From Escherichia coli (GTDB lineage: Bacteria; Pseudomonadota; Gammaproteobacteria; Enterobacterales; Enterobacteriaceae), in the NCBI RefSeq assembly GCF_003334335.1, contig NZ_QOWQ01000021.1: a DNA stretch of 64,000 nucleotides. One strand, given 5' to 3'. A program made the translations under genes and the position numbers. Shown piece by piece: positions 34,811 through 47,490 of the stretch. The stretch's first letter is position 1. Each line of letters starts with the position of its first letter. Below the pieces are notes generated by a model. That model was not told where the DNA came from. It did not search any database and saw nothing but the letters and a program-made list of their open reading frames with translations.

Positions 34811-35812
34811 TTACCCTCTATTGTCAAAGGGATTCAGTTCAACAGCAGCCTCTAAATGACCCGGCGCAAAGTGTGCATAACGCATAGTCATTTTTATATC
34901 GCTATGCCCCAGTATTTTTTGCAACACAAGAATATTTCCTCCCCGCATCATAAAATGGCTGGCAAACGTATGACGTAGCACATGAGTTAATTGTCCGTCA
35001 GGAAGTTCGATCTTTGCTCTCTTAATAGCGGCGTCAAAAGCCTCATAACATGGTGAAAAAAGCGCCCCGCGTTTTTTAGGAAGCATGGCCTGCAATTGAG
35101 GTGAAATAGGTACAGTGCGGTTCTTCTTTCCTTTGGTTTTAACAAATGTGATTCGTCCAGGCAGTATTTGAGATTGCTTTAATCCCTCTGCTTCACTCCA
35201 CCTGGCACCAGTCGCAAGCCCAATACGGACGACAACACCCAAATCTTTATTCCGTGACTCATCACATGCAATCAGAAGGCGTTCAATCTCATCTGCATAC
35301 AGAAACGCCTGTTCCTTTTCTTCCTCACGAAACTTGCGAATACCTGTCAATGGATTTTCACCAGACCACTCCCCAAGGCGCTTCAGTTCAGCAAAAACAG
35401 CATGTAAATATGACTGTTCGCGATTAACGGTTGCTTCACTAAGTTTTTTCTTCCCCTTTGGATTCCATTCACCTGATAACCGCCGCTCCCTGTAGATGGC
35501 AAACATATTTTTATCAAATTGAGAAGCAAACGGATCACCCAACCTAGAACAAATCGCCTCAAGTTTAGCCTTGCGCTCTTCACCGGAAGACAACGTTTTA
35601 CCGTACATTTCAAACCAGCGAGCAACCAACTCGGAAAGACGGGGGCCAGAACCATCCTGAAACTCGCCCCCTAAATTACCGTTCATTAAACGGCGCTCAT
35701 AAGAGAGCGCCTCACCTTTAGTAGCAAACTGCTTACGAATGCGTTTTCCTGCTGCTCCGTAGGGATAGCATTCACAGAGCCATTTACCAGTAGATAGTTT
35801 ACGAACAGACAT
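34811..35812 (-). CDS. int: P2-type tyrosine integrase
   Basis: Track ORF 34811..35887; start MSVRKLSTGKW aligns with the P2 Int N-terminus; catalytic R...HxxR...Y motifs (ATGARWSEA, HVLRHTFASH, MRYAHFAP). Confidence 0.9.
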   Translation of the reverse strand: MSVRKLSTGKWLCECYPYGAAGKRIRKQFATKGEALSYERRLMNGNLGGEFQDGSGPRLSELVARWFEMYGKTLSSGEERKAKLEAICSRLGDPFASQFDKNMFAIYRERRLSGEWNPKGKKKLSEATVNREQSYLHAVFAELKRLGEWSGENPLTGIRKFREEEKEQAFLYADEIERLLIACDESRNKDLGVVVRIGLATGARWSEAEGLKQSQILPGRITFVKTKGKKNRTVPISPQLQAMLPKKRGALFSPCYEAFDAAIKRAKIELPDGQLTHVLRHTFASHFMMRGGNILVLQKILGHSDIKMTMRYAHFAPGHLEAAVELNPFDNRG

Positions 35813-35846
35813 ATTAAAAAGTGCACACCAAGGAAAATTTTCGTGA

Positions 35847-36104
35847 TTAAGATGGTTGCTCAACCCGCATAAAGAGCTTTTCATCAACTAACTGCTCCCA
35901 TTCATCGGGATCAAGCTCCCAAGAAGGAGCCGACATATCATCCTCATCCCCCTCATTTACAAAAGTAACCAAATAGAAAGGAAGATCTCCGGGCTCATCG
36001 TCATCGTCCTTGACAATATGAACATTAGTAACAACTATACGATTAGATGGATTAACTTTAGATACATATAAACCAATTAATGGAATTTGCGGATTAGTTA
36101 CCAT
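35847..36104 (-). CDS. hypothetical highly acidic 85 aa protein (cargo between repressor and integrase)
   Basis: ATG with upstream agagg SD; product has runs of D/E (VKDDDDEPGDLPFYLVTFVNEGDEDDMSAPSWELDPDEWEQLVDE); no family recognised. Confidence 0.6.
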   Translation of the reverse strand: MVTNPQIPLIGLYVSKVNPSNRIVVTNVHIVKDDDDEPGDLPFYLVTFVNEGDEDDMSAPSWELDPDEWEQLVDEKLFMRVEQPS

Positions 36105-39302: not shown

Positions 39303-39527
39303 ATGAGAACAGTCGAATCACCCGCAACCGCCAGACCAGTTAACCATCATGCACATATCAGCATGGCCGCGAGAAAAGCCGAGCGTGCGCATATCTGCGA
39401 ATTGCTCCGAGACCTGGTTAACACGGCGAAAGAGAAGCACTCCTCCCCGCTGGAAACCTGTTCAGCCATTGAACGACTGATTGCAACGCTCACGAACAAC
39501 ACCGAACTGAAGGGGTCAGCGCAATGA
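39303..39527 (+). CDS. hypothetical protein, 74 aa
   Basis: Internal ATG of track ORF 39279..39527 preceded by aggag; stop overlaps the exonuclease start. Confidence 0.5.
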   Translation: MRTVESPATARPVNHHAHISMAARKAERAHICELLRDLVNTAKEKHSSPLETCSAIERLIATLTNNTELKGSAQ

Positions 39528-40105
39528 ACCATCTCATGATTGACACCGAAACACTGGGTAACGGACCGGACGCAGCCATATTCGCGATCGGGGCGGTGTT
39601 TTTCGACCCGTTCACCGGAAAGCTGGGCAAGCAGTTTGAGAAATTCATCGACCCGGTAGATTCAGAACGCAACGGCGGAACCGTCAATGCAGCCACCGCT
39701 GTATGGTGGGCCGGACAATCCGTGGAGGCCAGATCCTGCCTGCGCAACGCAGAGGGAACAGAGCTTGCGGCAGTAACCGAATTTCTGGCGTTCATTTCAC
39801 GCAATATGCATGACGAAAGCACGGGCAATTCACTGACCATATGGTGTAAGGGCGCATCCTTCGATTTCCCGATCCTGAAATCCGCCATAACACGCACAGC
39901 CGGAGAAAAAAGCATCCCCTGGTGCTACTGGAACGAGCGCTGTATGCGCCCGCTTATCGCCATGGCTGAATCAACTGGATGGAAAATGCCAGGCAGATCA
40001 GGAAAAGAGGCCATTGCTCACACCGCGCTGGGCGACGCCATTTACCAGGCAAAGGTCGTGTCAGAAATCTGGCAGCGCTTCACAACACCATTCCTGAACA
40101 TATGA
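39524..40105 (+). CDS. DnaQ-like 3-prime-5-prime exonuclease (DEDDh family)
   Basis: 193 aa; Exo I motif MIDTETLG and Exo III motif HTALGDA. Confidence 0.75.
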   Translation: MNHLMIDTETLGNGPDAAIFAIGAVFFDPFTGKLGKQFEKFIDPVDSERNGGTVNAATAVWWAGQSVEARSCLRNAEGTELAAVTEFLAFISRNMHDESTGNSLTIWCKGASFDFPILKSAITRTAGEKSIPWCYWNERCMRPLIAMAESTGWKMPGRSGKEAIAHTALGDAIYQAKVVSEIWQRFTTPFLNI

Positions 40106-40338
40106 GGTGAAGCCATGGTCGCCATCCTGAATGTGTGTTGCTGCCCCCCCCTGAACGTGGAAAGAAAAGCCCGCGCATCGCTGCGTTTATTCCGCGACGG
40201 CGTGCGGAATTTTTCACGCATAAAACCCCACGACTACCTGGTAATAAGAATCGGTTTCCGCTGGCGATTACTGAGCAAAAACAACGGGGCGTCATGGGAT
40301 TTATTAACGCACGAAACCTATAACAAAGAGGCCGCGTT

Positions 40339-41319
40339 ATGAGCAAAGAACTGTTATCCGGTACGCCACTGAAATGGGTGGGCGGAAAAAGCCGCATCAT
40401 GAACACACTGAAGGCGCACCTGCCAGAAGCCGACTGTCTGGTTGAGCCGTTCGTGGGCGGCGCATCGGTATTCATGAACACCAGTTACAAGCGTTACATC
40501 CTGGGTGATTCCAATGGTGCGCTGATTAATTTCTACCGGCAAGCTAGGGACAACACCGACAGCCTGATCGACGAGGCGAAAACCCTGTTCCTGAACCACA
40601 ACAACAGGGGTGACTATCTCATCATTCGCGAAACCTTTAACGCAGAGAATCATGCCTTCCTGAACAGCAGAACGGGAATAAGCGACCGCCGTGAACTGCG
40701 ACTGGCCGCCATGTTTTTGTACCTGAACCGACACAGCTTTAACGGTTTGTTCCGCGTGAACGGAAAAGGCGATTTTAACGTGCCTTTCGGCTGCTACCGC
40801 AAGCCCTACTTCCCTGAGCGTGAAATCCGCGCATTTGCAGACAAGGCAAACAGCACCCGAACGCTGCTTATCCACGCAGATTTTAAGGATACGCTGAACT
40901 CTGCCAGTCACCTGTTCGGCATGGGCAACACGCTTTGCGTGTACTGCGATCCCCCTTACCTGCAATTCAGTGGCCGGGACAATTTTACCGCCTACGGAAA
41001 ACCATTCGATGAAGACGAGCACGTTCGTCTGAGGGCAGCGCTTGACCGCCTTTCACAGGAAACGGGCGGCATGACCAGCATCACCATCTCCAATTCCGAC
41101 ACACCGGAAACACGACGCATTTATCGGGGTTACCGGATGAACTGCATACAGGCACCACGAAGCGTTGGCGCAAGAACCCGGGAATCAGCACCGGAGGTTA
41201 TCGCCACCCTGAGACAGTGCGACGCCTGCGGTCACCATGGCGGTGGCTACTGCCCGGACTGCGGACCTGTAACGGGAGATGCAACTTACAGCGTGATGTT
41301 TACCCCTGCCAGTACGTGA
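40339..41319 (+). CDS. Dam-family DNA N6-adenine methyltransferase with C-terminal Cys-rich extension
   Basis: 326 aa; FxGxG SAM motif (VEPFVGGASVF) and catalytic DPPY; C-terminus CDACGHHGGGYCPDCGP looks like a zinc ribbon. Confidence 0.85.
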   Translation: MSKELLSGTPLKWVGGKSRIMNTLKAHLPEADCLVEPFVGGASVFMNTSYKRYILGDSNGALINFYRQARDNTDSLIDEAKTLFLNHNNRGDYLIIRETFNAENHAFLNSRTGISDRRELRLAAMFLYLNRHSFNGLFRVNGKGDFNVPFGCYRKPYFPEREIRAFADKANSTRTLLIHADFKDTLNSASHLFGMGNTLCVYCDPPYLQFSGRDNFTAYGKPFDEDEHVRLRAALDRLSQETGGMTSITISNSDTPETRRIYRGYRMNCIQAPRSVGARTRESAPEVIATLRQCDACGHHGGGYCPDCGPVTGDATYSVMFTPAST

Positions 41320-41591: not shown

Positions 41592-41806
41592 TCCAGGAAT
41601 CAACCGTTATCCGGTTCACAGCCAACGGCCGTCAGTACGAGGTAGACGAAGCCCTGATTGATTACAGCATGACCCGCCAGAGCTCACGCTTTCAGGACAT
41701 GTACCACATCCGGCTAATCAACGGTTCGTCTTTCAACGCCACAAACGTGGAAGAAGTACGCGTGCTGACAGCAACACGCAACACGGGAGGTAAAGCGTGG
41801 CAGTGA
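41588..41806 (+). CDS. hypothetical protein, 72 aa
   Basis: Track ORF overlapping neighbours by a few nt, indicating translational coupling. Confidence 0.45.
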   Translation: MIQESTVIRFTANGRQYEVDEALIDYSMTRQSSRFQDMYHIRLINGSSFNATNVEEVRVLTATRNTGGKAWQ

Positions 41807-42147
41807 TTTATATCGCCGGCCCCATGACCGGATACGAAGACTGCAATAGAACGGCGTTTTGCCTGGAGGATCTGAAGCTTCGGTGCGCCGGAAACATCGT
41901 TCTTAATCCTGCCGTACTGCCTGACGGATTAAGCCAGCAGCAGTACATGAGTATTTGTATTCCGATGCTCATGTGTGCCGATGCCATTTACTTACTGGAT
42001 GGATGGGAAGAATCCGCTGGCGCACGGGCTGAGTACGCAATGGCGCTCAAACTGAACATGCCAGTGTCATTCCCGGAAAACCGGGCAGCCGTCGAAACCG
42101 TCGCGCAGCTGCTTCACAAATCAAAAGCCACACAGGCGACTGAGTAA
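41797..42147 (+). CDS. DUF4406 / nucleoside 2-deoxyribosyltransferase-like protein
   Basis: 116 aa; VIYIAGPMTG ... LLDGWEESAGARAEYAMALKLNMPV resembles the small Rossmann-like DUF4406 family common in prophages. Confidence 0.6.
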   Translation: MAVIYIAGPMTGYEDCNRTAFCLEDLKLRCAGNIVLNPAVLPDGLSQQQYMSICIPMLMCADAIYLLDGWEESAGARAEYAMALKLNMPVSFPENRAAVETVAQLLHKSKATQATE

Positions 42148-42585
42148 CCGACCGGAGATCGAAACATGATTGCGCGAAGAGCTGCCAACCGCCTCACAGG
42201 CTTTATTCCAGGCAAGGTTGATCATGCACTCCATCACGGCGCTGTCACTTTCCTCAACAAAGGAGAGGCGCGCAATCATGCATTCTGGGGTGAGCACGTG
42301 GCGCTGGCTAATCAGTCTTTGATAGCTAAGCGCCTGCCATTCAGCCTTTTCAGCTCTGATAGAAAGAGAGGCAGCCATGACCTGCCACACCAGAAAGAGC
42401 ACCACACTGGCGAAAACAAACGTTGCGCTGTCGCAAAAAATGAATGCGGCAACAATCGCAAGGAAAGCGCTAATCCTCAGAACCAAGGAAGCGCGACGGT
42501 GGAGAAGGCTTGTCATGTGTTCAAGCCAGTAGCTGTACCACAGGTCAAAAAGAATTTCGTAATCAGAAGGGAGCTTATCACTCAT
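42121..42585 (-). CDS. hypothetical membrane protein (about 154 aa, 2 TM) encoded antisense to the early operon
   Basis: Track ORF 42121..42768; first ATG at 42585 gives MSDKLPSDYEILFDLWYSYWLEHM... with two hydrophobic helices; its 3-prime end overlaps the DUF4406 gene convergently by about 27 nt. Confidence 0.55.
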   Translation of the reverse strand: MSDKLPSDYEILFDLWYSYWLEHMTSLLHRRASLVLRISAFLAIVAAFIFCDSATFVFASVVLFLVWQVMAASLSIRAEKAEWQALSYQRLISQRHVLTPECMIARLSFVEESDSAVMECMINLAWNKACEAVGSSSRNHVSISGRLLSRLCGF

Positions 42586-42765
42586 CAGAAACACCCCGCG
42601 TATGCAGACAATCACCAGTTGCCAGGTGATATTAATTCGCAACATTCTAACCACATCAGCACGCAACACAAAAACCGCTTGCCAGCGCTCGTCGTGTCGG
42701 GTTACATTTCCGCTGCACCTCATAAAACGGGTGCCGGGATTTCCACCCCGCTGACAAACGAAGCG

Positions 42766-42790
42766 CACAGCCGCGCCAGCGGTTTTTTTG
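42766..42790 (+). terminator. terminator-like hairpin plus T-run in non-coding gap
   Basis: ccgc-gcca-gcgg followed by ttttttt. Confidence 0.35.
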
Positions 42791-43258
42791 TGCGTACTGT
42801 ATCGCCACGTCTTTTTCGCGTCAGAATTATGGCGGGGCGTACAGGGCCGACTTCGGTCGGGCCGGTTTCTTCGTTTGCCGGTTGTGGAAACCCTGTACGT
42901 CTCGCCACCCTGAGTTTTCCACCTCTGGTTGGTGAGTTTTCAAAATTCACAAACGAAGAGGCCACACCATGGCAAACCGCAAGCAACAGCGCGCCCGCGC
43001 TGAGCGTCTTCACATCCACAGCGAAATCAACCGCAGACTTTTCCGCGCAACACGCGTCGCGCAAATCATGCATATCAACATGCTGCATGAGCGCACGCAC
43101 GCACTATCAAACCGTTACTGCGCTGCCGTCTTCAGCTATCTGGCCGAAGACCTGGCAGAACTGCAAAGCCTCATCAACCAGCACCGATAAACCACATCCG
43201 GAAGCTATCCCACACCTGCACGCGGGAGGCTTCCGCACATCTGTTACCGGAGGTTCTC

Positions 43259-43675
43259 ATGAAGAGCGTTAAGGGACTTTCAGATATTCAGGACTTTTTT
43301 AACTGGATGTGGGCGGAGGATCCCCTGCTGGCTTCCCGCCTGAACGACTGGCACGACTGTTACCGTCGCGCCTGTAAACAGGCTGCCCGCAGCGTCACCA
43401 CATACGGGGATTTCTCCTTCACCGTTGACGATCGTTACCGCGTGGACGTGAAAGGTGATGGTGATGGCTTTGGTTTATTTCACATCAACGGCATCGACAG
43501 CACCACCATCAGCTGGTCGTCATCAGAGATGGCGCTTGTGCTGGAGATGACAAACCACAGCGTGGCCGTGAAAGGTATATACACCGCAGAAGACTTTATC
43601 GGTGAATACCAGCGCCTTCTCATGCTGTACCGCGCGGCGTTTCAGGCGGCAACTGCCGGGGAGTGCGACGCATGA
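43259..43675 (+). CDS. hypothetical protein, 138 aa (upstream of A; B/orf-equivalent position)
   Basis: Track ORF; stop overlaps the start of gene A (ATGA). Confidence 0.55.
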   Translation: MKSVKGLSDIQDFFNWMWAEDPLLASRLNDWHDCYRRACKQAARSVTTYGDFSFTVDDRYRVDVKGDGDGFGLFHINGIDSTTISWSSSEMALVLEMTNHSVAVKGIYTAEDFIGEYQRLLMLYRAAFQAATAGECDA

Positions 43676-46185
43676 GCGACCATAACGCACAACTGGCGTA
43701 CCCGTGGAACGCCCCGCTGCAAGTTATCGATCCTGAAACGTTCGGCAGAGCGCAACCAACCGCATTACGCCAGGTCATTCAGAGCTACATCAACGAAGAC
43801 ATTCGCATTGATGCCAGACTAGATGAAGAAACCGTCGCCTTCCTGACAAACACAGACGAAGGCAAGCGAATTAATTTGCATCTTCACCGCGACGAAGAGC
43901 GTCGGATCAGACTGGAAAAAGTGGTGCGGCGCAAACGCGAATATCCGCCCACGCTGGTATCGAAAGCCATGGCAGAACTTCGCGCCCTGCCCTCGTTTCT
44001 TGGTAACGCGCTCATTCGTGATCTGGCGCGTTTAAACCGCAAACAGCAAAGCGCCCGCCATGAAGGCGTGAAAAACAACAATACACACGTGGCTGATAAC
44101 TTTGTTCGCCGTGGACTGCGCACACGCCTGAAACGCATCGAACAGGTGAATGAACGCTTCGCCACGACAGCATTCAAAGCCACCGCAGCGCGTCATCGCC
44201 TTGATGAATTACTCATGCTGCCACAACTCAACCGTGATCAAATTCAGCGCCTTGCCACACTAACGGCGGCGGCATTTTCCACCGAACTGGAACGCATATG
44301 TGATGAAGTTACTGAGCGGACAGGAAAAGGTGACGATAACCTGTTCACCTGGTTGCTGACTTACCAGCAGCTGGCGCGCATGGCGTTAAAACTGGGCGTG
44401 ACCCCACCATACTGGCCGTCACTCGAGATCAGACGTGACCGCCGCACGGCACCAGACCCTGAACTGGTACCGGGTGCGGTAATGCGTATCACCTGCGCCA
44501 CCTGGTGGAACAACCAGCTGCGCCACCTCGCAGATCTCTGGCGGGAGGAATTACTGCGTGCCGCCGGAAGAGTATCGCGCAAGGCATCCCCCTACATCAG
44601 TCATGAGTCACTCCAGGAATTCCGGGAGAAACGCCAGCGCACCCGTGATTTTCTCAAAAGCTGGGACATTGAAAACGAAGACGGTGAACGCCTGAGTCTG
44701 GAGGACGTGTACTGGTCAGGGCTGGGGAATCCGCGCAACCGCCGCAACGAGATGATGGCCTGCGTCAGAGGGATGGAACAGGTCGCCGAATCGCGTGGTG
44801 ACTCCGCGTTCTTCGTGACAGTAACCTGCCCTTCCCGCTTTCACAGCGTGAACGAGGACGGCAGCCTGAACCCGAAATACAACGGTGCCACCGTGCGCGA
44901 TGCCAGTGATTATCTGGTTTACGACGTCTTTGCAGCTGCAAGAAAAAAACTCAACAAAGAAGGCCTGAGCTGGTACGGGGTGCGCACCGTTGAGCCACAC
45001 CATGACGGCACACCACACTGGCACATGCTAGTATTCACTTCCCCGGACAATGAAGAACGCATCATTGAAATCATGCGTGACGCAGCAATCAAATCAGATC
45101 GCGCAGAACTGGGGAATGATATTTCTCCGCGCTTCAAGTGCGAAAAAATCGACCCGGCAAAAGGCACACCGGCAAGCTACATCGCAACCTATATCGGCAA
45201 GAACCTGGACACCAGCACCTTCCATAACAATGACCCGAAAACCGGCAAACCTTACGCCGATAAAGAATCGGGAAAAACCATGGCGGAAACCGTGGAAAAC
45301 GCCATTGCCTGGGCGAGTCTCCATCGCATCCGTCAGTTCCAGTTCTTCGGAATCCCGCCCCGCCAGGTATGGCGTGAACTCCGCCGCCTTGCCGGACAGA
45401 TGGAGCGCAACCCCGCATCACCGAAGCGCCTGGACCATGACGACATTGACGCCATTCTGGCCGCCGCTGACGTGGGGTGTTTTGCCACCTACATCAACCG
45501 TCAGGGCGGCGTGCTCATTCCACGCAACCTGTACCTGATCCGCACCGCATACGAAACCGCAGATGAGGCCAATGATTACGGGGAATTTCCTCAACGTATC
45601 TGGGGAATATGCGCCCCGTCGCTCGGCGAGCGCTACACCATCTGTACCCATCCGGACGAATGGAAACTGGTCAGAAAAGAAGCGAAAACCGACAACAGCA
45701 CGGACGAGGATTTTGACGTTGGGGGCGGCTTCGCCGCACCTTGGACTCGTGGCAATAACTGTCCCCATGATGAAAAAACAGACACCGGAGAGGGTAAAAC
45801 CCCACCACCGGAAACCAGGAAAGAACAAAAACTGGTCGTCCCGGGAGGTGATTTGGGTGAGTGGTTAAGGTCACTGACCCCCACAGAGCGAAAACAACTC
45901 ACCAGGCAGCTGAAAGATGCGCCATCTGACACAAAAACCGTGAAAACCGGCGGCCCCACCACGCCCGATGACGTCATACATGTGCGTACAGCATTGCCGC
46001 TGACTGACGTCACCACCACCGTAATCAAGTCGGCACTGAGCGCGACGGGCGAGGAGCTACACAGTGGCGCAGCACTTTCCGTACACAGAGGTGCACGCGT
46101 TCGCCTGCCTGACGGGCGGATTGTGCACTGGGATGAGAAATCACGAAGCCTGGTGGCAGCAGATCAACCGGAGGTGAACCCATGA
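43672..46185 (+). CDS. A: rolling-circle replication initiator endonuclease (P2 gpA family)
   Basis: Track ORF 43663..46185; HUH-type motif HWHMLVF and twin-tyrosine motif ASYIATYIGKN as in P2 A. Confidence 0.88.
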   Translation: MSDHNAQLAYPWNAPLQVIDPETFGRAQPTALRQVIQSYINEDIRIDARLDEETVAFLTNTDEGKRINLHLHRDEERRIRLEKVVRRKREYPPTLVSKAMAELRALPSFLGNALIRDLARLNRKQQSARHEGVKNNNTHVADNFVRRGLRTRLKRIEQVNERFATTAFKATAARHRLDELLMLPQLNRDQIQRLATLTAAAFSTELERICDEVTERTGKGDDNLFTWLLTYQQLARMALKLGVTPPYWPSLEIRRDRRTAPDPELVPGAVMRITCATWWNNQLRHLADLWREELLRAAGRVSRKASPYISHESLQEFREKRQRTRDFLKSWDIENEDGERLSLEDVYWSGLGNPRNRRNEMMACVRGMEQVAESRGDSAFFVTVTCPSRFHSVNEDGSLNPKYNGATVRDASDYLVYDVFAAARKKLNKEGLSWYGVRTVEPHHDGTPHWHMLVFTSPDNEERIIEIMRDAAIKSDRAELGNDISPRFKCEKIDPAKGTPASYIATYIGKNLDTSTFHNNDPKTGKPYADKESGKTMAETVENAIAWASLHRIRQFQFFGIPPRQVWRELRRLAGQMERNPASPKRLDHDDIDAILAAADVGCFATYINRQGGVLIPRNLYLIRTAYETADEANDYGEFPQRIWGICAPSLGERYTICTHPDEWKLVRKEAKTDNSTDEDFDVGGGFAAPWTRGNNCPHDEKTDTGEGKTPPPETRKEQKLVVPGGDLGEWLRSLTPTERKQLTRQLKDAPSDTKTVKTGGPTTPDDVIHVRTALPLTDVTTTVIKSALSATGEELHSGAALSVHRGARVRLPDGRIVHWDEKSRSLVAADQPEVNP

Positions 46186-47172: not shown

Positions 47173-47490
47173 ATGCCAACACAGGTTGCAACAGAGGGAC
47201 GACTGGCAGCAGACCCGAACACAAGGAGAACAACCAAAGGAACCAACGTCACAACGGCACAACTGGCGGTATCACTACCCTGCCATGGAGCAGAACAGCC
47301 AACCACAATGTGGCTTTACTTTATTGCATTCGGGAAGCAGCACGAAGAACTGGCAAAACACAGAAAAGGCGATCTGATTCTGGTGCACGGAAACTTGCAG
47401 GTAAACAGGTATCAGGACAAGTACGGGCAACAGAAAGAGAGCTGGCAGTTGCTGGCGCAAAGCATTATCAGCTCAAGAACCGGGCGATGA
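47173..47490 (+). CDS. SSB-like OB-fold protein lacking the acidic C-terminal tail
   Basis: 105 aa; pattern G-L-DP--R-T--G-----LA ... W--V--FGK-AE ... KG--V-V-G-L---RY-D--G mirrors the SSB N-terminal OB domain; no DDDIPF-type tail. Confidence 0.6.
   Translation: MPTQVATEGRLAADPNTRRTTKGTNVTTAQLAVSLPCHGAEQPTTMWLYFIAFGKQHEELAKHRKGDLILVHGNLQVNRYQDKYGQQKESWQLLAQSIISSRTGR

What the first reader, a model, noticed from the sequence alone, without database searches (positions are those of the whole stretch)
40339..41319. Phage Dam methyltransferase with an extra C-terminal cysteine-rich (zinc-ribbon-like) tail
Seen in sequence: the catalytic core (FxGxG, DPPY) is typical, but the last roughly 40 residues contain CDACGHHGGGYCPDCGP, absent from host Dam as I recall it. 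Inference: an orphan methyltransferase may protect phage DNA from restriction or time replication and packaging; the added domain may alter DNA targeting.
Basis: partly seen in the sequence, partly recalled or inferred. Interest (0 to 1): 0.4.

Follow-up and report, generated by a model that had tools for sequence, protein, structure and literature searches.

The report
Prophage Dam methylase with portable zinc-knuckle tail
This is an ordinary-looking GATC-type DNA adenine methylase of a P2-like prophage, but its short four-cysteine tail is a conserved, unnamed mini-module that also sits inside the RecE recombination nuclease and many other early phage proteins, so it is probably a shared docking tag and not part of the methylase itself.

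Summary
ORF 40339-41319 (+) encodes a 326-aa Dam-family N6-adenine methyltransferase (Pfam PF02086 1.8e-51; TIGR00571 above cut-off). It aligns with E. coli Dam over residues 11-290. After that comes an extra tail, LRQCDACGHHGGGYCPDCGPVTGDATYSVMFTPAST. The gene lies in the early operon of a P2-like prophage inserted beside yecA. No restriction enzyme is nearby, so it is an orphan methylase.

The tail is not chance. The motif CxxCGxxGGGxCPDCGxVMGDATYxxMF is present in 116 of the 120 closest homologues, with scrambled synonymous sites. The same module occurs at RecE (Rac exonuclease VIII) residues 517-544. It also occurs in RecE-N/3'-5'-exonuclease fusions and at the C-terminus of at least five unrelated small phage protein families. 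Pfam, NCBIfam, PDB and the searched literature have no entry for it.

The module is neutral to acidic and sits in acidic linkers. AlphaFold does not dock it on the methylase core. Zinc binding, fold and partner are all inferred. It is a new variant of a known kind, of moderate interest.

The parts
40339..41319 (+). Dam-family N6-adenine DNA methyltransferase gene (326 aa) with C-terminal Cys4 module
   Evidence: ORF list and sequence; PF02086 residues 13-266, 1.8e-51; TIGR00571 225.9 bits against cut-off 114.85; RefSeq annotation 'DNA adenine methylase' in a 99%-identical locus
40326..40331 (+). Shine-Dalgarno-like AAGAGG, 7 nt before the ATG
   Evidence: read directly from the sequence
40369..41208 (+). 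Methyltransferase core (residues 11-290) that aligns with E. coli Dam residues 8-267
   Evidence: phmmer against PDB 2g1p_A, E=8.8e-52, alignment shown; AF2 model is confident here (mean pLDDT 82 overall)
40450..40464 (+). Motif I (SAM-binding loop) FVGGA, residues 38-42
   Evidence: sequence; aligned with FVGAG of E. coli Dam; F38, V39, G40 invariant in 50 homologues
40948..40959 (+). Motif IV catalytic DPPY, residues 204-207
   Evidence: sequence; invariant in 50 homologues
41218..41301 (+). Portable Cys4 module, residues 294-321: CDAC-GHHGGGY-CPDC-GPVTGDATYSVMF
   Evidence: conserved in 116 of 120 homologues; homologous to RecE K-12 residues 517-544; profile hits in many unrelated phage proteins; at least 478 IMG/VR stretches
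41218..41229 (+). First knuckle CDAC (C294, C297)
   Evidence: sequence; C294 and C297 nearly invariant
41251..41262 (+). Second knuckle CPDC (C305, C308)
   Evidence: sequence; C-P-D-C invariant across 23 different carrier proteins
40115..40342 (+). Upstream 75-aa ORF (phrog_1525; RefSeq name 'ParE family toxin-like protein'). Its stop overlaps the Dam start (ATGA), which suggests translational coupling
   Evidence: adjacent to module-bearing Dam in 16 of 32 loci
39524..40105 (+). Stand-alone DnaQ/Rv2179c-like 3'-5' exonuclease. It is a homologue of the exonuclease domain that is fused directly behind the module in lambdoid RecE-like proteins
   Evidence: phrog_255 2.1e-60; 39% identity to the C-terminal domain of P0128; found next to module-bearing Dam in 17 of 32 loci
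43663..46185 (+). P2 gpA-type replication endonuclease, downstream end of the same early operon
   Evidence: RefSeq annotation in colinear locus L001; found downstream of Dam in 31 of 32 loci
34811..35887 (-). Prophage integrase at the yecA-proximal end of the prophage
   Evidence: ORF and RefSeq annotation 'phage integrase' at the colinear position

Best explanation
The gene encodes an active-looking orphan Dam-family methyltransferase, most likely specific for GATC. It is transcribed with the early (replication) operon of a P2-like prophage and translationally coupled to the preceding small ORF. Its last ~33 residues are a separate, portable mini-module fused to the catalytic core. The module has two cysteine knuckles (CxxCG and CPxCG) that most likely hold one zinc ion, followed by the nearly invariant peptide G-x-V-M-G-D-A-T-Y-x-x-M-F. 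Temperate phages of gamma-proteobacteria attach this same module to different early DNA-transaction proteins. These include Dam in P2-like phages, and RecE or a RecE-N/3'-5'-exonuclease fusion in lambdoid phages. They also include several small proteins of unknown function. I propose that it is a zinc-stabilised protein-protein docking tag. It would tether whatever enzyme carries it to one conserved partner, a host or phage hub at replicating or recombining DNA. It would not change which DNA sequence Dam methylates. Shown: the Dam family assignment, the prophage context, and the conservation and homology of the module across carriers. Inferred: GATC specificity, zinc binding, and the docking function. 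The partner is unknown.
For: Dam family: PF02086 1.8e-51; TIGR00571 above its curated cut-off; 41% identity to E. coli Dam in the 50-sequence MAFFT alignment and E=8.8e-52 to PDB 2g1p. The equivalents of K9, N120, L122, R124, P134 and Y138 of E. coli Dam are K12, N135, L137, R139, P149 and Y153; Y119 becomes F (alignment; the GATC-contact role of these residues is from my memory of Horton et al. 2006). Orphan and early-operon context. The prophage part has 98 GATC sites, 3.35 per kb, so substrate is plentiful. Module is real and under protein-level selection. Module is shared with RecE: NCBIfam RecE model positions 526-556 hit tail residues 292-322 at 5.3e-5; tblastn of the tail finds RecE genes of 36 or so phage records at 1e-6 to 1e-7; K-12 RecE 517-544 reads [28 protein letters not shown]. 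Portability: single full-length profile matches occur in proteins whose remaining sequence belongs to phrog_6680, 27803, 10472, 21008 and 1372/8364. They also occur in RecE-N + DnaQ-like exonuclease and RecE-N + PD-(D/E)XK architectures. Of 75 classified IMG/VR carriers, 48 are RecE-N+exo, 23 are Dam, 3 are RecE-N only and 1 is classical RecE. Across 23 carriers, 12 of the 13 positions C-P-D-C-G-x-V-M-G-D-x-T-Y are at least 90% conserved. That is far more than a small zinc site needs, as expected for a binding surface that meets one conserved partner. Arguments against DNA binding and for docking: module net charge is -0.9 (Dam) and -1.45 (other carriers), and -2.7 and -5.6 with 15-aa flanks. 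In RecE it sits in a long acidic low-complexity linker. AF2 gives the Dam core high confidence but does not pack the tail on it (pLDDT 37-46 for residues 300-326). Many relatives carry a second, C-terminal acidic-aromatic tip after the module. This tip resembles the protein-docking tip of SSB.
Against: No partner has been identified. No structure or confident model of the module exists. Zinc binding rests only on the knuckle motifs. A variant form has a different first half (C-x6-C-x2-C-x2-C), and one RecE variant lacks the first CxxC altogether, so the first knuckle may be dispensable. Aromatic residues (Y, F) could stack on single-stranded DNA, as in topoisomerase-type zinc ribbons, so an acidic charge does not exclude nucleic-acid binding. 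GATC specificity and activity were not measured. The protein scores below the equivalog cut-off for host Dam (217.6 against 441).
Confidence: 0.5

Rival explanations
1. The tail is a small zinc finger that binds nucleic acid (double- or single-stranded DNA). It would raise the affinity or processivity of Dam on phage DNA, and of RecE or the 3'-5' exonuclease on their substrates, or modify target choice.
For: All well-identified carriers act on DNA (Dam, RecE, DnaQ-like exonuclease). Cys4 ribbons commonly bind nucleic acids (general knowledge). The invariant Tyr and the Met/Phe could stack on bases.
Against: The module and its flanks are neutral to acidic. It lies outside the part that aligns with the DNA-contacting core of E. 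coli Dam. It is attached to many small proteins with no recognisable DNA-binding or enzymatic domain. There is no significant similarity to any DNA-binding zinc-finger family.
Confidence: 0.2
2. The module is an autonomous effector riding on whichever early protein is available. It would be a small zinc-peptide that inhibits or hijacks a host factor (for example a nuclease, a defence sensor or a repair protein). The Dam activity and the tail would then be functionally independent.
For: Searches found one module per phage record ('places_in_record' = 1 in all listed records; one copy in the window). It sits on very different carriers, some only 79-92 aa long. It is located in early or 'moron-rich' regions next to Kil, Gam and RdgC-type host-interference genes.
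Against: No matching anti-defence or inhibitor family was found (PADLOC hits only the MTase core). The module is never seen as a free-standing peptide in the hits examined. Its preferred position, directly next to a nuclease or methylase domain through a linker, fits tethering better.
Confidence: 0.15
3. The tail is only a structural or regulatory appendage: a zinc staple that stabilises or oligomerises the protein, or a zinc/redox-sensitive or protease-recognised tag that controls protein level. It would have no targeting role.
For: Small Cys4 knuckles often serve purely structural roles (general knowledge). The C-terminal position suits a degradation or stability tag. Some relatives have replaced it with a different Cys-rich tail (Salmonella phage SEN5).
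Against: A purely structural staple would not need the non-cysteine positions D, G, V, M, G, D, T, Y to be at least 90% conserved across unrelated carriers. It would also not be expected inside long disordered linkers of RecE. AF2 does not pack it against the Dam core.
Confidence: 0.12
4. The tail is an artefact: a read-through, a frameshifted fusion, or a chance Cys-rich stretch of no significance.
For: None, beyond the small size of the motif.
Against: The reading frame and the four Cys are intact in 116 of 120 homologues from several genera and in 29 complete E. coli genomes. Synonymous sites are divergent while the residues are conserved. Profile E-values reach 1e-13 in a library of 1.84 billion proteins.
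Confidence: 0.01

Closest known systems
E. coli Dam (EcoDam, PDB 2g1p) and the TIGR00571/PF02086 Dam family, including T4 Dam and M.DpnIIA
   Same: Same fold family and motif order (motif I FxGxG-type loop, then DPPY). 41% identity to E. coli Dam in the 50-sequence alignment, aligned over residues 11-290. Residues aligned with the EcoDam GATC-contact residues are conserved.
   Different: Prophage-borne and orphan. Scores below the equivalog cut-off for host Dam (217.6 against 441). Carries a 36-residue Cys4 tail that EcoDam, T4 Dam and DpnM lack.
Dam proteins of other P2-like phages (Peduoviridae): Klebsiella phage ST16-OXA48phi5.4, Salmonella phages SW3/SW5/SI7, Enterobacter phage phiT5282H
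   Same: Same architecture: Dam core plus CxxCGxxGGGxCPDCGxVMGxxTYxxM module, in the early operon upstream of the gpA replication endonuclease.
   Different: Only 47-51% identical. Most carry an additional acidic-aromatic C-terminal tip (...AFDGAEGF...ETQEPF) that the window protein lacks. None has been characterised, as far as the searched literature shows.
RecE / exonuclease VIII of the Rac prophage (residues 517-544) and its lambdoid relatives ('RecE-2', RecE-N + DnaQ-like exonuclease)
   Same: The same ~28-residue Cys4 module at 56-68% identity. It is located in flexible linkers next to a DNA-processing domain.
   Different: Nothing else is shared: no PF06630 or PF12684 in the window protein. 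In RecE the module is internal, not C-terminal. The RecE N-terminal two-thirds is described as 'of unknown function' (PMC11611040).
Rubredoxin-type / zinc-ribbon knuckles (CxxCG ... CPxCG), e.g. rubredoxin, the TFIIB Zn-ribbon, Nop10
   Same: The two knuckle signatures CxxCG and CPxCG. The weak, non-significant profile matches in the PDB search are all to such zinc sites.
   Different: Only 7 residues lie between the knuckles. No significant match to any Pfam zinc-ribbon family (best E-values 1.7 and 4.8) or to a PDB chain (best 0.069). The fold was not confirmed by AF2.
Other phage orphan Dam methylases (P1 Dam, T4 Dam, Stx-phage 933W Dam), recalled from memory
   Same: Phage-encoded GATC methylases without a cognate nuclease, thought to protect DNA or to support packaging and replication.
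   Different: Those enzymes are not known to me to carry this module. No comparison was run here beyond T4 Dam (PDB 1yfj, E=4e-11, aligned only to residue 240).

Membership tests
Dam family N6-adenine DNA methyltransferase (PF02086 / TIGR00571, alpha group) | Profile HMM score above the curated threshold | tested here: met
   TIGR00571 225.9 bits against cut-off 114.85; PF02086 1.8e-51 over residues 13-266
Dam family N6-adenine DNA methyltransferase (PF02086 / TIGR00571, alpha group) | SAM-binding motif I (FxGxG) near the N-terminus | tested here: met
   FVGGA at residues 38-42 aligns with FVGAG of EcoDam. The second Gly is shifted by one position. F38, V39 and G40 are invariant in 50 homologues.
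Dam family N6-adenine DNA methyltransferase (PF02086 / TIGR00571, alpha group) | Catalytic motif IV (D/N)PP(Y/F) | tested here: met
   DPPY at residues 204-207, invariant in 50 homologues
Dam family N6-adenine DNA methyltransferase (PF02086 / TIGR00571, alpha group) | GATC-contact residues of EcoDam (K9, Y119, N120, L122, R124, P134, Y138; roles recalled from Horton et al. 2006) | tested here: met
   Aligned residues are K12, F134, N135, L137, R139, P149 and Y153. N135 and R139 are invariant; K12 and P149 are at least 90% conserved. Specificity itself was not measured.
Dam family N6-adenine DNA methyltransferase (PF02086 / TIGR00571, alpha group) | Methylation of adenine N6 in GATC | not testable with these tools
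   Needs a methylome or a DpnI/DpnII/MboI digestion assay in a dam-null host
Host (chromosomal) Dam orthologue (NCBIfam NF008152 equivalog) | Score above the equivalog cut-off | tested here: not met
   217.6 bits against cut-off 441. The gene lies inside a prophage.
Type II restriction-modification system | Cognate restriction endonuclease encoded next to the methylase | tested here: not met
   The neighbours are a 3'-5' exonuclease, phrog_1525, small ORFs and a DUF4406 protein. None matches a PADLOC nuclease model. The best PADLOC model for the protein is 'orphan methyltransferase'.
Zinc ribbon / rubredoxin-like Cys4 knuckle domain | Two CxxC knuckles, four conserved Cys | tested here: met
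   CDAC...CPDC. All four Cys are kept in 116 of 120 homologues. C10, C21 and C24 are invariant in 55 diverse modules. A variant form keeps four Cys with the spacing C-x6-C-x2-C-x2-C.
Zinc ribbon / rubredoxin-like Cys4 knuckle domain | Significant match to a curated zinc-ribbon family or to a solved zinc-ribbon structure | tested here: not met
   Pfam best hits are HVO_0758 at E=1.7 and Zn_ribbon_3 at E=4.8 on RecE. The PDB profile search gives a best E of 0.069.
Zinc ribbon / rubredoxin-like Cys4 knuckle domain | Beta-hairpin knuckle fold that brings the four Cys together | tested here: inconclusive
   AF2 gives pLDDT 37-46 for the tail in the full protein and a mean of 58 for the isolated module with 55 sequences.
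Zinc ribbon / rubredoxin-like Cys4 knuckle domain | Stoichiometric zinc binding | not testable with these tools
   Needs metal analysis of the purified tail
RecE / exonuclease VIII | Exonuc_VIII N-terminal domain (PF06630) and PD-(D/E)XK nuclease domain (PF12684) | tested here: not met
   Both are present in K-12 RecE and absent from the window protein. Only the 28-residue module is shared.
Listeria-Bacteroides repeat (Flg_new, PF09479) | ~65-70-residue repeat FxGW...VTGDxTYxAxF, usually in tandem, in secreted proteins | tested here: not met
   The resemblance covers only 13 residues (profile positions 19-31), with no Cys and no FxGW in the tail. The Flg_new proteins scored only by summing 4-17 repeats.

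The most novel reading that the evidence does not exclude
The 28-residue Cys4 module is an undescribed, universal recruitment tag of temperate-phage early DNA enzymes. It would dock Dam (P2-like phages), RecE and the RecE-N/3'-5'-exonuclease fusions (lambdoid phages) and several small early proteins onto one conserved host hub at replication or recombination intermediates. The hub could be SSB-coated DNA or an SSB-tail-binding protein; many relatives add an SSB-tip-like F-D-x-x-E-x-F-COOH right after the module. If so, the module would give the first functional handle on the 'unknown-function' N-terminal two-thirds of RecE. It would also explain why full-length RecE behaves differently from the nuclease domain in recombineering.
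Probability: 0.25. Interest if true: 0.7.

Novelty: new variant of a known kind. Interest (0 to 1): 0.45.

Why it matters
The methylase itself is routine. The tail has wider reach. It links P2-like phage Dam, the heavily used recombineering nuclease RecE, a widespread RecE-N/3'-5'-exonuclease fusion and several orphan early-gene families through one tiny, strongly conserved and uncatalogued module. Finding its partner would show how temperate phages position different DNA enzymes in the cell. It would assign a function to part of RecE's unexplained N-terminal region. It could also give a 30-residue portable tag for directing engineered enzymes to the same site. For annotation, the module deserves its own domain model, so that 'exonuclease' labels are no longer transferred to unrelated small proteins that share only this motif, as the PHROG hits show.

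Tried and rejected
- Megablast of the gene against 50,697 phage records found nothing. Only protein-level searches found relatives.
- The first search for homologous proteins attempt failed in the queue and was repeated.
- AlphaFold2 of the full protein and of the isolated module with a 55-sequence alignment gave low confidence for the tail, so the fold stays unconfirmed.
- A profile search of the PDB and Pfam scans found no named family for the module.
- Literature searches by motif string and by topic found no description of the module. [quoted passage not shown] A search meant to verify the EcoDam contact residues found nothing useful, so those roles are cited from memory.
- Homology to Listeria-Bacteroides (Flg_new) repeats was considered and rejected. 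Only 13 residues match, and the scores come from summing many repeats.
- The upstream phrog_1525 ('ParE-like') protein was considered as the module's partner and rejected as a general partner. It is next to Dam in 16 of 32 loci but absent from all 49 RecE-type loci.
- An obligatory linkage with the stand-alone 3'-5' exonuclease was considered. It is present in only 17 of 32 Dam loci.
- Recent DNA transfer between RecE and Dam, or a DNA-level element, was considered and rejected, because the codons differ at conserved residues.
- A beta-clamp-binding motif (QL[SD]LF type) in '...TYxxMF' was considered by eye only. The spacing does not fit and F is not conserved in the Dam tails. It was not tested.
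- A restriction-modification pairing was rejected.
- A second module copy elsewhere in the window was not found.
Full report
1. THE OBSERVATION

The window has an ATG-initiated ORF at 40339..41319 on the + strand that encodes 326 residues.
- An AAGAGG Shine-Dalgarno-like sequence lies 7 nt upstream.
- The start overlaps the stop of the preceding 75-codon ORF (ATGA), which suggests translational coupling.
- Pfam assigns residues 13-266 to MethyltransfD12 (PF02086, 1.8e-51).
- NCBIfam TIGR00571 'dam' scores 225.9 bits against a cut-off of 114.85. The equivalog model for chromosomal Dam scores 217.6 against a cut-off of 441.
- Against solved structures, the best match is E. coli Dam (2g1p, E=8.8e-52), aligned over query residues 11-290 and Dam residues 8-267 of 278.
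- DPPY is at residues 204-207. Motif I reads FVGGA, a one-position variant of FxGxG.
- After the aligned core, E. coli Dam has 11 residues without Cys. The query has 36: LRQCDACGHHGGGYCPDCGPVTGDATYSVMFTPAST.

2. CONTEXT

Window 20349-61316 is colinear at 98.7% identity with an annotated stretch of E. coli EC2. From about 34.8 kb onward the window is a P2-like prophage inserted beside yecA. It carries an integrase, a repressor region, an early operon, a gpA-type replication endonuclease, and portal, terminase and P2-family capsid genes.

The gene order around the finding is: 3'-5' exonuclease (39524-40105), a 75-aa phrog_1525 protein (40115-40342), Dam, two small ORFs, a DUF4406/nucleoside-deoxyribosyltransferase-like protein, and later gpA (43663-46185).

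No restriction enzyme is nearby, and PADLOC's best model for the protein is 'orphan methyltransferase' (8.6e-76). The gene occurs in 29 of 5,426 complete E. coli genomes. The prophage part of the window has 98 GATC sites (3.35 per kb, observed/expected 0.75-0.89), so a GATC methylase has ample substrate.

3. THE TAIL IS CONSERVED, NOT CHANCE

Of the 120 best homologues (Escherichia, Klebsiella, Enterobacter, Citrobacter, Raoultella, Salmonella), 116 keep a C..C(5-12)C..C pattern at the C-terminus. The consensus is RVCDxCGRxGGGxCPDCGPVMGxATYxxM.

Characterised P2-like phages (Klebsiella ST16-OXA48phi5.4, Salmonella SW3/SI7, Enterobacter phiT5282H) have the same architecture at 47-51% identity, always upstream of gpA. 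At the DNA level, about half of the conserved residues use different codons in relatives. Selection therefore acts on the protein, and there has been no recent DNA transfer.

Among phage records, 1,048 hold a Dam-family match. Only about ten hold a Dam with the full module. The tail is thus a clade-specific addition.

4. THE TAIL IS A PORTABLE MODULE SHARED WITH RecE AND OTHERS

The first hint came from NCBIfam: the RecE (exonuclease VIII) model, positions 526-556, hit tail residues 292-322 (5.3e-5). A tblastn of the 41-residue tail against phages then found RecE genes in about 36 lambdoid records (1e-6 to 1e-7). K-12 RecE residues 517-544 read [28 protein letters not shown], inside a long acidic linker before the nuclease domain.

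A 32-column profile searched against 1.84 billion representative proteins gave 95 hits at E<=1e-3. The single-match hits fall into these groups:
- Dam proteins.
- Classical RecE (module + PD-(D/E)XK nuclease).
- RecE-N + module + a DnaQ/Rv2179c-like 3'-5' exonuclease. This exonuclease is 39% identical to the stand-alone exonuclease two genes upstream of Dam in the window.
- RecE-N proteins without a nuclease domain.
- Small proteins whose remaining sequence belongs to unrelated PHROGs of unknown function (phrog_6680, 27803, 10472, 21008, 1372/8364), with the module usually within a few residues of the C-terminus.

A variant form has a different first half (CxTxGPxCxG-CPDCG) but still four Cys. 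Across 23 different carriers, C-P-D-C-G-x-V-M-G-D-x-T-Y is at least 90% conserved at 12 of 13 positions.

In IMG/VR, at least 478 stretches encode the module. Of 75 carriers classified among the best 80 loci, 48 are RecE-N + 3'-5' exonuclease, 23 Dam, 3 RecE-N only and 1 classical RecE.

Genomic contexts of the small carriers are early regions of lambdoid and Mu-like prophages, beside Kil, Gam, RecT, RdgC and DUF3164 genes. Named hosts include Escherichia, Salmonella, Klebsiella, Aeromonas and Oceanimonas.

5. WHAT THE MODULE IS NOT

- It has no Pfam family. The best hits are E=1.7 and E=4.8 to generic zinc-ribbon families.
- It has no NCBIfam domain model.
- It has no solved structure. The best PDB profile E-value is 0.069, and the weak hits are all to zinc knuckles of rubredoxin, TFIIB or Nop10 type.
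- The searched literature has no description of it. [quoted passage not shown]
- The long multi-repeat hits of the profile search are Listeria-Bacteroides (Flg_new) repeat proteins. They match only the 13 residues VTGDATYxAxF and score by summing 4-17 repeats. I regard this as convergence on a beta-hairpin motif, not homology.

6. STRUCTURE

AlphaFold2 with a 50-sequence alignment models the methylase core well (mean pLDDT 82, pTM 0.83). It gives residues 300-326 a pLDDT of 37-46 and does not pack them on the core. The isolated module with 55 diverse sequences reaches only pLDDT 58. 'Zinc-ribbon-like' therefore rests on the CxxCG/CPxCG knuckle signatures and the invariance of the four Cys. The fold and metal binding are inferred.

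7. MECHANISM

*Core.* The Dam family assignment is solid. GATC specificity is inferred. The residues aligned with EcoDam K9, N120, L122, R124, P134 and Y138 are conserved, and Y119 becomes F. The roles of these residues come from my memory of Horton et al. 2006.

*Tail.* I favour a zinc-stabilised protein-docking tag, for four reasons:
- It is portable among enzymes with different substrates and among proteins with no enzymatic domain.
- It is neutral to acidic (-0.9 and -1.45) with acidic flanks (-2.7 and -5.6) and sits in disordered linkers.
- Its non-cysteine surface positions are almost invariant across carriers and host genera, as expected if it meets one conserved partner.
- In most Klebsiella, Citrobacter and Enterobacter relatives it is followed by a second motif that looks like a docking peptide. 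In 43 of 113 homologues the protein ends F[DE]xxxxF-COOH, and in 34 more it ends [DE][PAGS]F-COOH. E. coli SSB ends ...MDFDDDIPF. The window protein lacks this tip.

The partner is unknown. The phrog_1525 neighbour is not a general partner: it is absent from all 49 RecE-type loci.

*Rivals.* The alternatives are a nucleic-acid-binding finger (0.2), an autonomous host-targeting effector riding on early proteins (0.15), a purely structural or regulatory staple (0.12), and an artefact (0.01).

8. COMPARISON WITH THE KNOWN, AND NOVELTY

The protein is a member of the Dam family. Every defining feature that could be tested was met, and activity was not testable. It is not the host Dam orthologue, and it is not part of a restriction-modification pair. 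It shares only the module with RecE and is not a RecE family member.

Identical and near-identical proteins are already in RefSeq as 'Dam family site-specific DNA-(adenine-N6)-methyltransferase', so the gene is not new. What is undescribed is the module and its distribution. I rate the finding as a new variant of a known kind, with interest 0.45. The methylase is ordinary. The shared module is a modest surprise with a clear experimental path, and it bears on the long-unexplained N-terminal region of RecE.

9. VERDICT

The best explanation is a GATC-type orphan Dam of a P2-like prophage fused to a portable, probably zinc-binding docking module shared with RecE and other early phage proteins. 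Confidence is about 0.5 for the whole statement. It is high for the family assignment and the module homology, moderate for zinc binding, and low to moderate for the docking function.

Noticed in passing
Relatives: L003 2992-3948, L004 2986-3957, L002 2986-3969; proteins P0023-P0120: After the Cys4 module, 77 of 113 full-length Dam homologues end in an acidic-aromatic tip. 43 end F[DE]xxxxF-COOH (e.g. AFDGAEGF, AFDDLEAF) and 34 end [DE][PAGS]F-COOH (e.g. CETQEPF). The spacing matches the E. coli SSB C-terminal tip FDDDIPF. The window protein and its E. coli clade lack it.
   Followed up: partly
P0128, P0139; IMG/VR loci L034-L095 (48 of 75 classified): The commonest carrier of the module in viral contigs is an unnamed architecture: RecE N-terminal region + module + DnaQ/Rv2179c-like 3'-5' exonuclease. 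PHROGs 20376, 2082 and 14078 encode this layout. Because of the shared module, unrelated small proteins hit these 'exonuclease' PHROGs.
   Followed up: partly
L007 1339-3387 (Shigella phage 75/02 Stx): A 683-aa protein annotated 'exodeoxyribonuclease VIII' is a RecE N-terminal region with the module at residue 555 but no RecE-type nuclease domain. It is followed by Gam, RecT and a separate exonuclease gene. This matches the 'RecE-2' class mentioned in PMC12315714.
   Followed up: partly
P0121-P0124, P0135, P0142, P0148 and about 45 other long proteins: The second half of the module (VTGDATYxAxF) matches, 4-17 times per protein, the end of the ~68-residue Listeria-Bacteroides (Flg_new, PF09479) repeat FxGWxPxxxxVTGDATYxAxF in large secreted or dockerin-bearing proteins. 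This is probably a convergent beta-hairpin.
   Followed up: yes
L009 2182-3165 (Salmonella phage SEN5 Dam): This P2-like Dam keeps the first knuckle (CDGCGRYDGGHC) but continues with a different, 11-cysteine tail (…CAQCCPGIAACEEGWSFDCCGNCDICEPSDNPETW). This suggests tail swapping, or a different metal cluster.
   Followed up: no
L012 2345-3484 (Klebsiella phage Kp4860-2, record marked UNVERIFIED): The Dam ORF reads …EVIGVLRGDVGRNSGACGAW… where the module should be, then regains a familiar C-terminal tip region. This looks like a frameshift through the module: either a sequencing error or a natural loss.
   Followed up: no
P0167 (756-aa RecE variant): RecE in which residues between SGANAGGGN (about residue 249 of K-12 RecE) and the module's GGGN-CPDCG are deleted, apparently through the GGGN microhomology. 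The first CxxC knuckle is removed but [13 protein letters not shown] is kept.
   Followed up: no
window 39524-40105 and 40115-40342: A stand-alone DnaQ/Rv2179c-like 3'-5' exonuclease and a 75-aa phrog_1525 protein (RefSeq: 'ParE family toxin-like') precede Dam. They recur next to module-bearing Dam in 17 and 16 of 32 P2-like loci respectively. Their function in P2-like phages is unknown.
   Followed up: partly
window 41797-42147: A DUF4406 / nucleoside 2-deoxyribosyltransferase-like gene (phrog_355, 1.8e-39) lies three genes downstream of Dam in the same early operon. This is a possible second nucleotide- or DNA-modification function.
   Followed up: no
window about 42121-43270: Between the DUF4406 gene and the phrog_3237 gene, the otherwise rightward early operon is interrupted by about 1.1 kb. 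The annotated genes there in the colinear E. coli locus are small hypothetical proteins on the opposite strand (L001 21783-22247 and 22382-22570). This looks like a moron-type insertion.
   Followed up: no
window 47173-47490: The prophage's 105-aa protein, annotated as single-stranded DNA-binding protein in the colinear locus, ends …SSRTGR and has no acidic SSB-type C-terminal tip.
   Followed up: no
L011 6537-7541: In a lambdoid-type prophage, the gene after a module-bearing 179-aa protein (P0129) encodes a 334-aa protein with DnaJ-type CxxCxGxG knuckles (CSRCKGHG … CPDCGGRG). This is a different Cys motif, in the same early region as RecT, RdgC and a PF05869 Dam.
   Followed up: no
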